Shown here in pieces: positions 3,221-64,000 of a stretch of 64,000 nucleotides of DNA. Origin of the DNA: Shigella phage Sfk20. The translations under genes were made by a program, and so were the position numbers. The notes beneath the pieces are model-generated. The model was given only the letters and a program-made list of their open reading frames with translations, was not told the DNA's origin and ran no database searches. The DNA is taken from sequence record MW341595. One strand, given 5' to 3'. Every line of letters begins with the position of its first letter. Positions within the stretch are counted from its first letter, which is position 1.

Positions 3221-3482
3221 TTAGACTTTCCTTTTTACCGCTGAGATAAGCGTTATATACTTTAAGAGTGCCGTAATAAATTCGGTCATTTTCGTCTAAA
3301 GACTCATGGTCGAGTTCATCAAGTTCCTTTTTATCCATGACTATAACATCATTACAGTAAAGAAACCCAAGTTTTTCGTGACCAAACTCAAATTTATTGC
3401 AGTACACAATATTAGCGTGATGGTTTCCGTGCAGTTTAATCTCTTTTATGTCGGAATCACTGATATTCATACAGTAAATCAT
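3153..3482 (-). CDS. hypothetical protein, 109 aa
   Basis: ORF track; overlaps denB start by about 68 nt in another frame. Confidence 0.45.
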   Translation of the reverse strand: MIYCMNISDSDIKEIKLHGNHHANIVYCNKFEFGHEKLGFLYCNDVIVMDKKELDELDHESLDENDRIYYGTLKVYNAYLSGKKESLNAENESGFTETISDSDIYPIEQ

Positions 3483-3500
3483 AATTTTTCCTTAAAACAA

Positions 3501-3517
3501 AAGGGCCGAAGCCCCTT
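3501..3517 (-). terminator. GC stem-loop (aagggccgaagcccctt) with A/T-rich flanks
   Basis: Inverted repeat read from sequence, just downstream of ORF 3521..3715. Confidence 0.5.
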
Positions 3518-3520
3518 ATT

Positions 3521-3715
3521 TTATTTGAATTGTGCAATTCTTTTTTCTAAACAATCTGCGTAAGATTTCATTGAGATGAACTGTGAAAGCAGTAATTCTT
3601 GCTCAACTTCATTAATTGTTAGAAACTTTGTACTTTCTAAAAATTTGCTCAGTGCATTAATTTTGAGCATTAATTGATCGTATTCTTCTTTTACTCGTGC
3701 TTGATAACCTAACAT
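3521..3715 (-). CDS. hypothetical protein, 64 aa
   Basis: ORF track; flanked by stem-loops at 3501-3517 and 3730-3745. Confidence 0.5.
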   Translation of the reverse strand: MLGYQARVKEEYDQLMLKINALSKFLESTKFLTINEVEQELLLSQFISMKSYADCLEKRIAQFK

Positions 3716-60460: not shown

Positions 60461-60648
60461 TATTCTTCTACATGTTGTTTACGACCTTTTTTATCAATAA
60501 AGGTATATTCAACGAATGTTCCAATATAATCTTTATCTACATCATGTGGACTATTAATTGGGCATTTAGTACGGCAAATGCGTTCCCATTGACGAATAAT
60601 TTCCACTTTGTTTTTAGGATCAAACGGATGCGGGTAATGTACTTTCAT
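60436..60648 (-). CDS. hypothetical protein, 70 aa
   Basis: ORF track. Confidence 0.45.
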   Translation of the reverse strand: MKVHYPHPFDPKNKVEIIRQWERICRTKCPINSPHDVDKDYIGTFVEYTFIDKKGRKQHVEEYCLKVTWL

Positions 60649-61099
60649 AATCCACCACTATTAAATCAATATCAGGAGTAAACATGTCGATTAATTTAGA
60701 AACCTTATCCCAATCGCCGCCAGCAATACCACAACCGATGCGTGGAATGTAAATTACTGGTTTAAACAAAAGGGTTTCTGCCTGTAGATTTAATTCTATC
60801 ATACAGTTTACTAAAGCACCATAATCAAGATTAGGACCCGGTTCGTATTGCGTATACAAATTATAGCACATACTAAATCCTGTAGGATTATGTTTAAAAA
60901 CAATAGACATATCGCCTAATTTATCACGAGAACCGTACTCGGTAGTGGTTTTATCTATTTCTAAAATTTTGGGATAGGCTCTTGCTAATTGACCTGCTAC
61001 GCCAGAGCCCATTGTGTGGAAGCAATTACACCCGTGCGCAATAATATTACCTTGAAGAAATAGGGCGACAATATCGCCCTTGATATATTTTACAATCAT
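60620..61099 (-). CDS. macro-domain-like protein (predicted ADP-ribose binding/processing), 159 aa
   Basis: N-terminal GDI...IAHGCNC...GSGVAG and later GCGIAGGDW resemble the macro-domain ligand-binding loops. Confidence 0.5.
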   Translation of the reverse strand: MIVKYIKGDIVALFLQGNIIAHGCNCFHTMGSGVAGQLARAYPKILEIDKTTTEYGSRDKLGDMSIVFKHNPTGFSMCYNLYTQYEPGPNLDYGALVNCMIELNLQAETLLFKPVIYIPRIGCGIAGGDWDKVSKLIDMFTPDIDLIVVDYESTLPASV

Positions 61100-61443
61100 C
61101 TAGTACTCAATCCTCGATTATAAGAATCTACTAAACGGTCAACCATTGAATGACAAGCGGCTTTATCTTTCTCCTCCGCAACTGAACATTCTAAGGTATT
61201 CCACTTTTTAGCATATCGTTTTAACAATGTATCATTTTTGTATCTGCTTGATTTATCTCTTTCTCCGTCTTTATATGCATATATTAATTTCTGTGCAAAT
61301 TCAGCTTGGCATGCTTTATTTTTCCCGCAATAATCTGCGGCAGTACGGTTTACATACTCTCTAATTTCAGTATATGATGTATCTGCTGATGCAGAAGCAG
61401 AAAATGAAATTAATCCTATACATAAAACCAAAATTTTAGTCAT
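61096..61443 (-). CDS. secreted/periplasmic protein, 115 aa
   Basis: ORF track; N-terminal signal peptide MTKILVLCIGLISFSASASA. Confidence 0.5.
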   Translation of the reverse strand: MTKILVLCIGLISFSASASADTSYTEIREYVNRTAADYCGKNKACQAEFAQKLIYAYKDGERDKSSRYKNDTLLKRYAKKWNTLECSVAEEKDKAACHSMVDRLVDSYNRGLSTR

Positions 61444-61981
61444 TTACTATTTCCAAAAGTTTATTATTTTTAAGGTAATTAGCCTTTTCTAGGACTTCAG
61501 AAGCATATTTAGAACCTGCTTTAACGTTCCATCCCGAATTATAAGAGGATATCGCCTTTCTTATATCGCCCTTATGTATATTTAACCAATAAGAAAGTTC
61601 AATGTACGCCCAGGAAGCTGAATTGGATCGTTTATTCAACATTCTTTTTATTTCAGCATCGGTCATATTATAACCAAGTTCCTTAACTCTCGCTCGCATA
61701 GTCGGCAAATAATTTTGGAACATTCCATAGGCATGATGCTTTGGTTTAGATTTTAAATTAACTCCGGCAGAGCTTTCTTGCCATAAAATAGCAGCCATTA
61801 TATGACCCAATCCGCTCTTGTGGATATTTTTGTGTGTTTTATATTTTCCATCCTTAGAAAATTGTTCCCCGAATTGATATGCGTAGCGCATGTTATCGAG
61901 TTGGACATTACTGAAAGTATGCTCGGAGCTATGTGCCATCATTGAAATGGCCAATAGACCAGCGAGTAGTGCTTTTCTCAT
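61436..61981 (-). CDS. periplasmic lytic transglycosylase-like protein, 181 aa
   Basis: Signal peptide plus ILWQESS...YGMFQ resembling the SLT catalytic E-S / G-MQ motif. Confidence 0.5.
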   Translation of the reverse strand: MRKALLAGLLAISMMAHSSEHTFSNVQLDNMRYAYQFGEQFSKDGKYKTHKNIHKSGLGHIMAAILWQESSAGVNLKSKPKHHAYGMFQNYLPTMRARVKELGYNMTDAEIKRMLNKRSNSASWAYIELSYWLNIHKGDIRKAISSYNSGWNVKAGSKYASEVLEKANYLKNNKLLEIVND

Positions 61982-61988
61982 GCTTACC

Positions 61989-62450
61989 TCATTGAGTTTT
62001 AATTACTGCTTTAGAAGCCTTTCCTGGTAAACGACGACTGTTGATAATTGCCATCCTACATTGAAGCGACGGGTCTTTGAACTTCGCATTAGGTTTACAA
62101 ACTGTAAATCCAAGCCAAAGATTTCCATCTGTGATTTCTAAACGTCCAGGGCGATATTCAACCCCATCAATAAAATCCTCGTCAATGTCAGGACGCGGAG
62201 GCATACTCAGGAATTCATTAACTTCTAAAACATGGTCTTTTATTTTGTGGAATAATTCAAAAACATATGTCTCATCAATCTCTCGTTGAATTGCACGATC
62301 AAGAAGATGCTGAGAATATTTTAGATGAAACGATGAGACCCCTGCTGCTTTTGATGCCTCACGAATCTCATTGTTAATTTGACGAAACTCCGACTCAAAG
62401 TGACGACGAAGCTTATTTCGACGGATAAAAACTTCTGTGTTGATAGTCAT
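61989..62450 (-). CDS. regB: RegB site-specific endoribonuclease
   Basis: 153 aa as T4 RegB; position downstream of the tk block. Confidence 0.8.
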   Translation of the reverse strand: MTINTEVFIRRNKLRRHFESEFRQINNEIREASKAAGVSSFHLKYSQHLLDRAIQREIDETYVFELFHKIKDHVLEVNEFLSMPPRPDIDEDFIDGVEYRPGRLEITDGNLWLGFTVCKPNAKFKDPSLQCRMAIINSRRLPGKASKAVIKTQ

Positions 62451-62477
62451 GTTATTCTCCTCTTAACTGATAGAAAA

Positions 62478-62506
62478 ATTATACCACAGTCAAGAGGAAA
62501 AGTAAA
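62478..62506 (-). promoter_or_regulatory. early (sigma70-type) promoter upstream of regB
   Basis: Reverse complement TTTACT-17 nt-TATAAT. Confidence 0.6.
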
Positions 62507-62509
62507 CAG

Positions 62510-62830
62510 TTATTCTTTAAATCTAATCAATTTATTCATAGACTTTGAAACTTCTGCACGGACCTCATGTAGGTTTTTAAGCTGTTCAAGACGTTGCTCA
62601 TAATAAGCAATTTCATCTTCTTCAAGACAGTCCTGTGAATCTTCTTTAAGATAACGCGCATAGTCCTGGAAAGCTTTACGGACTACTTCCTGGAAGTCAT
62701 CAAGACTTTGAATTTTCTTAGGAGCAACAGATACACGACGAGGGGCAGTATAATACTCATAACCAAACCCTGCGCTTAATTGAGCCATTAATATTTTTCC
62801 TCTGGTTGGAACACAGCACGACAAGCCCAC
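62510..62830 (-). CDS. hypothetical protein (vs.3 position), 106 aa
   Basis: ORF track. Confidence 0.45.
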
Positions 62831-63090
62831 ATACTGGCTTCTTTGAGTTTCGTTTTAGCAATAGTTAACTGATCGAGGCTTTCAGCATAATTCTTCGCGA
62901 ATTCACAGTCTTCACAATTATCCAGTGCTTCCCAGAATTCATCGTATAAAGCGTCAAAGATAAGTCCTAAACGAACTTCAGCATCTTTGATAGCATTCAC
63001 TTTACCGATTTTCTCTTCAGTATGTGGCTTATAACCTTTAATATCTTCAATCATATTTGACTTCCTCACCAGTACATAAATCATATTCAA
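62788..63090 (-). CDS. hypothetical protein (vs.4 position), 100 aa
   Basis: ORF track; synteny only. Confidence 0.45.
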
Positions 63091-63268
63091 CTAAACGAAT
63101 AGGTTCATGAATGCCATATCCTTGAACAGAAATTTCTGTCGTAGGATAAATTCCATCAATATCACCCATGGTCCACGCTTCATTAAATTGCTGTTCGCCT
63201 GAATTACTAAACCACTCGGCGAAAGCATTTAACACATCTTTAGAACCTTCAATAATTATCTTTGCCAT
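63047..63268 (-). CDS. hypothetical protein, 73 aa
   Basis: ORF track. Confidence 0.45.
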   Translation of the reverse strand: MAKIIIEGSKDVLNAFAEWFSNSGEQQFNEAWTMGDIDGIYPTTEISVQGYGIHEPIRLVEYDLCTGEEVKYD

Positions 63269-63630
63269 TACAAGCTCTCAGTAAAGGTACGAGCGATAAC
63301 GTCGCGCTGCTGTTCCGGAGTCAGAGAGTTAAAGCGAACTGCATAACCGGATACACGGATGGTCAGCTGCGGATATTTTTCCGGATGCTTAACTGCATCT
63401 TCCAGAGTTTCACGACGCAGAACGTTAACGTTCAGGTGCTGACCACCTTCAATTTTAACTGTAGGCTGTGGTTCAATTTCAATTTCACGGGTGTGCAAAC
63501 CGTAGAAAATTTCTGGGTCTACAAAAGAGTCCTCTTTAAAGGTTTTAGAAACAATAATTCGTGCTTGAATACCATCTTCAAAATAAATAGTACCTTTATG
63601 TGTGCCTTCAAGAATTTGATATGCTTTCAT
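63268..63630 (-). CDS. autonomous glycyl-radical cofactor (GrcA/YfiD-like), 120 aa
   Basis: C-terminal 59 aa [60 protein letters not shown] match remembered E. coli GrcA incl. RVSGY motif; 3' part visibly GC-rich. Confidence 0.85.
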
Positions 63631-63636
63631 ATAACC

Positions 63637-63966
63637 TCAATTAGAAAATAAATTTATCCAAGACTGTTCTTTAATTAAAAATGGCTCAGAATCATATGCC
63701 ATTAAACTTTGGGTGATTAGTCCTTTAAAAGGTCCATCAATAAATTCCATGGTAAAATATGGAATTTTATTCATTAATCTTGCATTAGGAGCAGTACACA
63801 AAACTCTGCATCCTTTGAATACACCTTTTTGTAATTTGTATTGCTTAGGATAAAATTCGCTCAAGACGTTGTTATTTGCCAAAATTTCAAAATGATTCAC
63901 CAATTTATTTTTAATAGTTTTTGGCGAAAAATAAAGATATTCGAAAAGCTGTGTGTCTGTCATCAT
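63637..63966 (-). CDS. hypothetical protein, 109 aa
   Basis: ORF track. Confidence 0.45.
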   Translation of the reverse strand: MMTDTQLFEYLYFSPKTIKNKLVNHFEILANNNVLSEFYPKQYKLQKGVFKGCRVLCTAPNARLMNKIPYFTMEFIDGPFKGLITQSLMAYDSEPFLIKEQSWINLFSN

Positions 63967-64000
63967 TGCATTCCGATTACGAAAAACTGCGGACGAGTAA

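What the first reader, a model, noticed from the sequence alone, without database searches (positions are those of the whole stretch)
62510..63268. Small ORFs downstream of regB at the vs.3-vs.5 positions as candidate immune-evasion genes
Three ORFs of 73-106 aa follow regB on the minus strand. Recent literature reports that a small T4 protein from the vs region acts as a sponge for cyclic-oligonucleotide immune signals. I cannot recall that sequence well enough to confirm identity with 62788-63090, so this is a positional hypothesis only.
Basis: inference. Interest (0 to 1): 0.45.

Follow-up and report, generated by a model that had tools for sequence, protein, structure and literature searches.

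The report
Two known phage immune-signal sponges

Summary
The window comes from a Tequatrovirus about 98% identical to T4 in this region. The three minus-strand ORFs are real, conserved genes. They lie upstream of regB in the direction of transcription, not downstream.

- **Vs.4** is 88/88 identical to PDB 7UQ2, T4 Vs.4/Acb2. That protein is a hexamer that sequesters three 3',3'-cGAMP molecules (Kd about 30 nM) and blunts CBASS.
- **Vs.3** is 98% identical to T4 Vs.3, published in 2026 as TadIV-1. TadIV-1 is a dimeric sponge for N7-cADPR that blocks type IV Thoeris. The long N-terminal loop and residues R17, R18 and K24 are all present here.
- **Vs.5** shows no sequence or fold similarity to any known sponge. 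It belongs to a conserved, strongly acidic family with no conserved basic residue. Across genera it tracks vs.7, not the sponge genes. Its function remains unknown.

In passing, the T4 reference Vs.5 (58 aa) looks like a one-base sequencing error. Verdict: already known, low interest.

The parts
63047..63268 (-). vs.5: 73-aa conserved acidic protein of unknown function (PHROG 1986). Its ATG shares one base with the vs.6 stop, and its last 8 nt overlap the vs.4 start.
   Evidence: ORF. PHROG 1986 at E 2.8e-43, with no Pfam, NCBIfam or PDB sequence match. 988 phage records, 986 of them near full length. AF2 model at pLDDT 90 with no fold match. pI 4.1 and net charge -10. No conserved basic column in 53 sequences.
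62788..63054 (-). vs.4 = acb2: 88-aa cyclic-dinucleotide (3',3'-cGAMP) sponge directed against CBASS. The TTG start at 63090 in the ORF list is a spurious extension.
   Evidence: 88/88 identical to PDB 7UQ2 Vs.4. Pfam PF24729 at 71 bits. T4 annotation. Annotated 'anti-CBASS protein 2' in phage Ec_O157kw. Function taken from PMC10097602, PMC10312549 and PMC12657218.
62510..62788 (-). vs.3 = tadIV-1: 92-aa long-form N7-cADPR sponge directed against type IV Thoeris. The GTG start at 62830 in the ORF list is a spurious extension.
   Evidence: 98% identical to T4 Vs.3, differing at N38K and T64E. E 4.9e-38 to PDB 9WIW, the UPEC07 homologue. 9WIW belongs to PMC13243611, which names T4 Vs.3 as TadIV-1. 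R17, R18 and K24 are present in the sequence.
62450..62508 (-). Intergenic region between vs.3 and regB. It holds the regB early promoter (TTTACT-17-TATAAT with an extended TG, 62506-62478) and a hairpin whose 3' arm covers the regB GAGGAG Shine-Dalgarno (62462-62457). The -10 hexamer sits in the loop.
   Evidence: Promoter scan. RNA fold at -23.1 kcal/mol, z = -5.0, with 0 of 200 shuffles folding as well. An inverted repeat and a -10 region are annotated at the same place in X04567. The sequence is identical in T4.
61989..62450 (-). regB endoribonuclease. This is the downstream neighbour and is not part of the sponge pair.
   Evidence: ORF. T4 annotation.
63268..63630 (-). vs.6, a GrcA-like autonomous glycyl-radical cofactor. 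It is the upstream neighbour in the same gene string.
   Evidence: Pfam Gly_radical at E 2.6e-18. T4 annotation.
63637..63966 (-). vs.7: 109-aa protein of unknown function. In most Tevenvirinae genera it lies directly next to vs.5.
   Evidence: ORF. PHROG 2049. Synteny table. The AF2 model was unusable at pLDDT 50.

Best explanation
This is the 3' part of the vs.8-to-vs.3 early gene string of a T4-like phage. According to PMC13243611 the string is driven from a promoter upstream of vs.8, which lies outside the window. The genes are packed with overlapping stop and start codons: TAATG between vs.6 and vs.5, ATGATTGA between vs.5 and vs.4, and TAATG between vs.4 and vs.3. That packing suggests they are made together early in infection.

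Two of the three products are nucleotide-signal sponges. Vs.4/Acb2 assembles into a hexamer. Each of its three dimer interfaces clamps one 3',3'-cGAMP (or another cyclic dinucleotide) between Y8 and F82, with contacts from H11, K23 and R79. This keeps the CBASS second messenger away from its effector. Vs.3/TadIV-1 forms a two-helix homodimer. Its flexible N-terminal loop (R17, R18, K24) captures N7-cADPR, the TIR-made signal of type IV Thoeris, so the caspase-like effector is not activated.

What is shown and what is inferred:
- Shown here: the sequence identity, the conserved functional residues and the gene layout.
- Taken from published experiments on the identical (Vs.4) or 98% identical (Vs.3) T4 proteins: ligand binding, oligomeric state and phage phenotypes.
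- Inferred: that the proteins of this particular phage behave the same way, and that the overlapping codons mean co-expression.

Vs.5 is not a recognisable sponge. It is a conserved, highly acidic small alpha/beta protein. My best guess, at low confidence, is that it binds a protein partner. That partner could be Vs.7 or a host factor.
For: - **Vs.4:** 88/88 identity to 7UQ2, and Pfam PF24729 at 71 bits against a cut-off of 27. Every residue that Jenson et al. showed to be needed is therefore present: Y8, H11, T12, K23, L29, F33, A66, A73, S74, A77, R79 and F82. Independent work confirms T4-Acb2 binds cyclic dinucleotides with Kd about 84 nM and is needed to escape a V. cholerae CBASS.
- **Vs.3:** 98% identity to T4 Vs.3 and E 4.9e-38 to 9WIW. 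The paper shows that T4 lacking vs.3 becomes sensitive to type IV Thoeris, that Kd is about 216 nM, that the protein is a dimer, and that R17, R18, K24 and the long N-terminus are required. All of these features are present here.
- **Selection:** against resequenced T4, vs.4 has 12 synonymous and 0 non-synonymous codon changes, and vs.3 has 9 and 2.
- **Layout:** identical to T4.
Against: No binding or infection assay was done on this phage's own proteins.

Vs.3 carries two substitutions relative to T4, N38K and T64E. Neither position was among those mutated in the paper. E at the second position is also found in the active UPEC07 homologue, so loss of function is unlikely but has not been excluded.

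Co-translation is inferred only from the overlapping codons. The promoter of the string lies beyond the window end, so operon membership rests on T4 literature.
Confidence: 0.92

Rival explanations
1. Vs.5 is a third anti-defence or host-takeover protein of a new fold. It would act by binding a protein (a host defence component, or Vs.7) and not by soaking up a nucleotide signal.
For: It is small (73 aa) and very acidic (pI 4.1, net charge -10). It is encoded in an early gene string next to two proven anti-defence genes. It is conserved in about 988 Straboviridae genomes. Its predicted fold is confident but has no structural match.
Against: It behaves like backbone, not patchy cargo. It is present in all eight genera sampled, including Gelderlandvirus, which lacks acb2, tadIV-1 and grcA, and it stays next to vs.7. 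Expressed alone it did not inhibit type IV Thoeris. No paper on its function was found.
Confidence: 0.25
2. Vs.5 is itself a nucleotide-signal sponge, so the locus would be a three-sponge cassette.
For: Only its position and its size. Known sponges are mostly under 100 aa and some sit next to each other, as vs.4 and vs.3 do here.
Against: It has no sequence or fold similarity to Acb2, Tad1, Tad2, Acb4, Sequestin, Lockin or TadIV-1. In 53 homologues no basic column exceeds 60% K/R, and net charge ranges from -6 to -14. Acb2 and TadIV-1 both depend on conserved Lys and Arg residues. It was negative against type IV Thoeris.
Confidence: 0.05
3. The Vs.3 of this phage is an inactive TadIV-1 variant, because of N38K/T64E or weak expression. 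Phage T2 shows the expression case: it is sensitive to type IV Thoeris despite carrying a functional homologue.
For: There are two amino-acid differences from the tested T4 protein. The paper notes that T2 is sensitive although its homologue works when over-expressed.
Against: All long-form homologues tested were active. R17, R18, K24, K48, E49 and H74 are retained. E64 matches the active UPEC07 protein. The upstream Shine-Dalgarno and the coding context are identical to T4.
Confidence: 0.05
4. The ORFs are chance open frames or annotation artefacts.
For: The ORF list does include spurious N-terminal extensions and antisense ORFs in this region.
Against: There are hundreds to more than a thousand syntenic homologues. 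Substitutions are mostly synonymous. Solved structures exist for Vs.4 and for a Vs.3 homologue.
Confidence: 0.01

Closest known systems
T4 Vs.4 / Acb2 (PDB 7UQ2; Jenson et al. 2023, PMC10097602)
   Same: The amino-acid sequence is identical (88/88), and so are the gene position, neighbours and start-codon context.
   Different: Nothing at protein level. There are 12 synonymous nucleotide differences from resequenced T4.
PaMx33 Acb2 (p26; PDB 8H2J, 8IXZ)
   Same: Same family (Pfam PF24729). The cyclic-dinucleotide-binding Tyr and Lys align, with Y8 and K23 here matching Y11 and K26 there.
   Different: Identity is only about 24%. T4-type Acb2 lacks the second pocket and does not bind cA3 or cAAG.
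T4 Vs.3 / TadIV-1 (Chen et al. 2026, PMC13243611; UPEC07 homologue, PDB 9WIW)
   Same: It is the 92-aa long form and 98% identical to T4 TadIV-1. R17, R18 and K24 are retained, and the gene sits in the same position directly 5' of the regB promoter.
   Different: Two substitutions relative to T4, N38K and T64E. The UPEC07 protein used for the crystal structure has a 9-residue longer N-terminal loop.
Sequestin (T4 Y16O), Tad1, Tad2, Acb4 and Lockin sponges
   Same: These are also small phage proteins that neutralise immune second messengers. A Sequestin homologue lies elsewhere in this window, at 3521-3715.
   Different: They are unrelated in sequence and fold to any of the three ORFs. None of them appeared among the sequence or fold matches returned for Vs.5.

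Membership tests
Acb2 (anti-CBASS 2) sponge: ORF 63054-62788 | Sequence membership: matches the Acb2/Tad1 hairpin profile above its curated cut-off and is homologous to a solved Acb2 | tested here: met
   PF24729 at 71.4 bits against a cut-off of 27. 88/88 identical to 7UQ2. E about 0.03 to PaMx33 p26 over the full length. PHROG 717, the group Jenson et al. used to define homologues.
Acb2 (anti-CBASS 2) sponge: ORF 63054-62788 | Cyclic-dinucleotide pocket residues (T4 numbering Y8, H11, K23, R79, F82) | tested here: met
   All are present, since the sequence is identical to the crystallised protein.
Acb2 (anti-CBASS 2) sponge: ORF 63054-62788 | Hexamerisation interface residues (L29, F33, A66, A73, A77) | tested here: met
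   All are present.
Acb2 (anti-CBASS 2) sponge: ORF 63054-62788 | Forms a hexamer, binds three cGAMP with nanomolar affinity and rescues phage from CBASS | not testable with these tools
   Shown experimentally for the identical T4 protein. Not assayed for this phage.
[quoted passage not shown] | Homology to T4 Vs.3 and to the solved UPEC07 TadIV-1 | tested here: met
   98% identity to T4 Vs.3. E 4.9e-38 and full-length alignment to 9WIW.
[quoted passage not shown] | Long form (over 80 aa) with the N-terminal flexible loop; short forms of about 70 aa are inactive | tested here: met
   92 aa, with an N-terminus identical to T4 over residues 1-37.
[quoted passage not shown] | Residues R17, R18 and K24, needed for N7-cADPR binding in T4 TadIV-1 | tested here: met
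   The sequence reads ...[12 protein letters not shown]..., which places R17, R18 and K24.
[quoted passage not shown] | Forms a dimer, binds N7-cADPR and inhibits the caspase-like effector | not testable with these tools
   Shown for the T4 and UPEC07 proteins.
Any known signal-sponge family (Acb2, Tad1, Tad2, Acb4, Sequestin, Lockin, TadIV-1): ORF 63268-63047 (Vs.5) | Sequence or profile similarity to a known sponge | tested here: not met
   No Pfam family at E up to 1. The only PDB sequence hit is SurE at E 0.008, over 38 residues. PHROG 1986 has unknown function.
Any known signal-sponge family (Acb2, Tad1, Tad2, Acb4, Sequestin, Lockin, TadIV-1): ORF 63268-63047 (Vs.5) | Fold similarity to a known sponge | tested here: not met
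Any known signal-sponge family (Acb2, Tad1, Tad2, Acb4, Sequestin, Lockin, TadIV-1): ORF 63268-63047 (Vs.5) | Homo-oligomer with a conserved, positively charged ligand pocket | tested here: inconclusive
   Oligomer modelling was not available. No basic column exceeds 60% K/R in 53 homologues, and net charge ranges from -6 to -14. This argues against such a pocket but does not exclude it.

The most novel reading that the evidence does not exclude
Vs.5 is a previously unrecognised counter-defence or host-manipulation factor with a new fold. Here Vs.5 means the true 73-aa protein, not the 58-aa frameshifted product in the T4 reference. It would work by binding a protein and possibly acts together with Vs.7. 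It may have been missed because the reference annotation of the model phage is wrong from residue 18 onward.
Probability: 0.2. Interest if true: 0.5.

Novelty: already known. Interest (0 to 1): 0.18.

Why it matters
The result confirms that this phage carries intact, wild-type copies of two adjacent immune-signal sponges. One is Acb2, directed against CBASS. The other is TadIV-1, directed against type IV Thoeris. A Sequestin homologue lies elsewhere in the window.

That is useful for predicting host range. The phage should evade cGAMP-type CBASS and type IV Thoeris. It should also be vulnerable to Panoptes, which is triggered by T4 Acb2.

It adds no new biology for vs.4 or vs.3. Two points may be of modest value. 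First, the two sponges sit side by side in a variable slot between the vs.7/vs.5 backbone and regB. Second, the T4 reference Vs.5 protein appears to be a sequencing-error artefact, which matters to anyone cloning or modelling that gene from the reference.

Tried and rejected
- **Vs.5 against known families.** Pfam, NCBIfam and PDB sequence searches found nothing meaningful.
- **Vs.5 homologue search.** The first single-sequence search returned only 5 proteins. I re-ran it with an 8-sequence alignment built from phage loci and obtained 76.
- **Exhaustive profile search with Vs.5.** This found only a few more small phage proteins, plus large FG-GAP-repeat, Ltp-lipoprotein and other long secreted or surface proteins. 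The FG-GAP hits come from a short repeated 'W-F-x-N-x-G-x-Q-x-F' motif that is multiplied across repeats. I rejected them as motif coincidence, because AF2 places most of that stretch of Vs.5 in helix and loop, not in a beta-propeller blade.
- **C-terminally extended Vs.5 homologues.** They carry no informative domain. The one exception is a single metagenomic fragment with a PG_binding_1 domain, which is probably a fusion artefact.
- **Vs.7.** It had only 9 homologues, mostly fragments, and the AF2 model was unusable at pLDDT 50. Nothing can be said about a Vs.7-Vs.5 partnership.
- **Literature on Vs.5.** One search returned only statistics papers containing 'vs.5' and another returned nothing.
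- **Rfam.** No RNA family matched in 61000-64000.
- **Promoter for vs.5 to vs.3.** The only convincing minus-strand promoter in range is the one for regB. The promoter of the vs.8-to-vs.3 string lies beyond the window end.

Full report
**What is in the sequence**

The window is from a T4-like phage (Tequatrovirus). The 2.1 kb around the finding is 98-99.4% identical to many Escherichia and Shigella T-even phages and co-linear with T4.

On the minus strand, transcription runs from high to low coordinates. The genes in order are:
- vs.7 (63966-63637)
- vs.6, GrcA-like (63630-63268)
- vs.5 (63268-63047)
- vs.4 (63054-62788)
- vs.3 (62788-62510)
- a 59-nt intergenic region
- regB (62450-61989), then vs.1 and vs

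Two of them were taken at their longest extent, from GTG 62830 and TTG 63090. The biologically validated starts are ATG 62788 (92 aa) and ATG 63054 (88 aa). The ORFs also lie upstream of regB in transcription, not downstream.

Stop and start codons overlap throughout. vs.6/vs.5 and vs.4/vs.3 share TAATG, and vs.5/vs.4 overlap by 8 nt (ATGATTGA). I read this as a sign of co-expression. That is an inference.

**Vs.4 is Acb2**

The 88-aa product is identical at every residue to PDB 7UQ2 'Vs.4' (E 1.9e-57). It also exceeds the Pfam Acb2/Tad1 hairpin threshold (71 bits against 27).

Jenson et al. 2023 (PMC10097602) found vs.4 in a T4 mutant screen. They showed Kd of about 30 nM for 3',3'-cGAMP and a hexamer holding three ligands. 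Ligand contacts come from Y8, F82, H11, K23 and R79. Mutants at the hexamer interface (L29, A66, A73, A77) lose function. Knocking out vs.4 gave about a 50-fold lower titre on a conjugation-defective (Cap2-mutant) CBASS strain.

Later work adds two points. T4-Acb2 binds cyclic dinucleotides but not cA3 or cAAG (PMC10312549). Its binding of the decoy 2',3'-c-di-AMP triggers the Panoptes system (PMC12657218).

Because the protein here is identical, all of these residues are present. Against resequenced T4 the gene has 12 synonymous and no non-synonymous codon changes.

**Vs.3 is TadIV-1**

A PDB sequence search with the 92-aa product hit 9WIW, deposited under the name 'Endoribonuclease', at E 4.9e-38 over the full length. 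That entry belongs to Chen et al. 2026, Nat Commun (PMC13243611).

The authors used T4 x T6 phage mating to map resistance to type IV Thoeris to T4 vs.3, and named the protein TadIV-1. Their main findings were:
- It sequesters N7-cADPR with Kd of about 216 nM, without degrading it.
- It is a two-helix homodimer.
- It needs its flexible N-terminal loop. Short homologues of about 70 aa are inactive.
- R17, R18 and K24 matter in the T4 protein.

The window protein is the long form and 98% identical to T4 (N38K, T64E). It retains R17, R18 and K24. Glu at position 64 is also the residue in the active UPEC07 homologue.

The same paper expressed Vs.3 to Vs.8 singly. Only Vs.3 blocked type IV Thoeris.

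**Vs.5 is not a recognisable sponge**

It has no Pfam, NCBIfam or PDB sequence match, and PHROG 1986 has unknown function. tblastn finds it in 988 phage genomes, and 986 of those matches cover at least 80% of the 73-aa query.

A 53-sequence alignment gave a confident AF2 model: pLDDT 90, with a short N-terminal strand, two helices and a beta-hairpin. The model has no structural neighbour:
- The best Foldseek PDB E-value is 2.2.
- BFVD returns only its own uncharacterised family.

The family signature is W-F-S-N-S-G-E-Q. Every member is net acidic, from -6 to -14. No column is more than 60% Lys/Arg. That fits poorly with binding an anionic nucleotide in the way Acb2 and TadIV-1 do.

An exhaustive profile search added only a few small phage proteins, plus spurious hits to large repeat-containing proteins, chiefly FG-GAP.

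**Context across genera**

I compared loci from eight Tevenvirinae lineages. Seven keep the vs.5-to-regB arrangement; the eighth, the 289-kb Klebsiella phage AM_K4, has vs.7 and vs.5 adjacent but regB rearranged onto the other strand. vs.5 lies directly after vs.7 in six of the eight. In Mosigvirus, as in T4, grcA sits between them, and in Gelderlandvirus no vs.7 was found.

The content between vs.5 and regB varies:
- Gelderlandvirus: nothing
- Dhakavirus and Winklervirus: acb2 only
- Kanagawavirus: acb2 plus short tadIV-1
- Jiaodavirus and Karamvirus: grcA plus acb2; Karamvirus also has an unmatched 76-aa ORF before regB
- Mosigvirus: grcA upstream of vs.5, then acb2 plus short tadIV-1
- T4-like phages: grcA upstream of vs.5, then acb2 plus long tadIV-1

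So the sponges behave as exchangeable cargo in a hotspot next to regB, while vs.5 behaves as backbone. This weakens guilt-by-association for vs.5. Record counts agree with different distributions: Vs.4 in 1235 records, Vs.5 in 988, and Vs.3 in 724, of which 628 are full length.

**Intergenic region**

Positions 62506-62478 hold a T4-type early promoter, TTTACT-17-TATAAT with an extended TG. The surrounding RNA folds into a hairpin of -23.1 kcal/mol (z = -5.0) whose 3' arm pairs with the regB GAGGAG Shine-Dalgarno. The -10 hexamer lies in the loop.

I infer that read-through transcripts from the vs genes would mask the regB ribosome-binding site, whereas transcripts started at regB's own promoter would not. 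The repeat was already noted in the 1986 T4 entry. No Rfam family matches here.

**Verdict**

The genes are real, but the starts and the 'downstream' orientation needed correcting. It is not supported for vs.5.

Everything established here is already published, so novelty is 'already known' and interest is low. The only open item is the function of Vs.5. I put about 0.2 on it being a new kind of counter-defence or host-manipulation factor, and about 0.05 on it being a sponge.

Noticed in passing
window 63047-63268 (vs.5); L001 (NC_000866) 3382-3558; L013 (X04567); L012 (KJ477684): The T4 reference genome and the original 1986 sequence lack one C (TTTCGC-GAGTGG against TTTCGCCGAGTGG). Their annotated Vs.5 is therefore 58 aa and frameshifted after residue 17. 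Resequenced T4 'wild', T4_ev151 and this window have the intact 73-aa ORF, and about 986 other Straboviridae genomes align over nearly its full length. The reference protein (UniProt Y06H_BPT4) is most likely a sequencing-error artefact.
   Followed up: yes
window 3521-3715 (-): A 64-aa ORF (MLGYQARVKEEYDQL...) matches the cloning primer for T4 Y16O with one mismatch. Y16O is the T4 member of the Sequestin family of 3'cADPR sponges against type I Thoeris (bioRxiv 10.1101/2025.07.12.664507). The window therefore carries at least three signal sponges. No solved structure matches it by sequence.
   Followed up: partly
window 62450-62508 (-): A strong hairpin (-23.1 kcal/mol, z = -5) pairs the regB Shine-Dalgarno GAGGAG with sequence upstream of the regB promoter's -10 box. 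This suggests regB translation is masked on read-through transcripts from the vs genes and open on transcripts from its own promoter. There is no U-tract, so it is not a canonical terminator.
   Followed up: partly
loci L003-L010 (eight Tevenvirinae lineages), region between vs.5 and regB: The slot between the vs.7/vs.5 backbone and regB is a variable cargo site. In different genera it holds nothing, acb2 alone, acb2 plus short or long tadIV-1, or grcA plus acb2. Karamvirus EnC07 has an extra 76-aa ORF (L009 3390-3620) there with no match to any of the window genes.
   Followed up: partly
Vs.5 residues about 16-30 (F..WFSNSGEQ.F.E); proteins P0086, P0091, P0096-P0098: The most conserved Vs.5 motif resembles the repeated 'IAWFENNGSQSFTE' core of bacterial FG-GAP/VCBS repeats closely enough to give E about 1e-13 against multi-repeat proteins. 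This is probably motif coincidence, because AF2 puts most of that stretch of Vs.5 in helix and loop.
   Followed up: partly
window 60620-61099 (-): A 159-aa ORF is the tk.4 homologue. It is annotated in T4 as an A1pp/macro-domain phosphatase, a domain type that acts on ADP-ribose derivatives, and it lies only 1.4 kb from the N7-cADPR sponge. I did not examine it.
   Followed up: no
window 63637-63966 (-), vs.7: Database homologues of Vs.7 carry a precomputed Pfam tag, PF26834, that is absent from the local Pfam copy. Some records annotate this gene or vs.3 as 'endoribonuclease' or 'RegB domain-containing'. That looks like annotation spill-over from neighbouring regB, and the PDB name of 9WIW carries the same label.
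   Followed up: no
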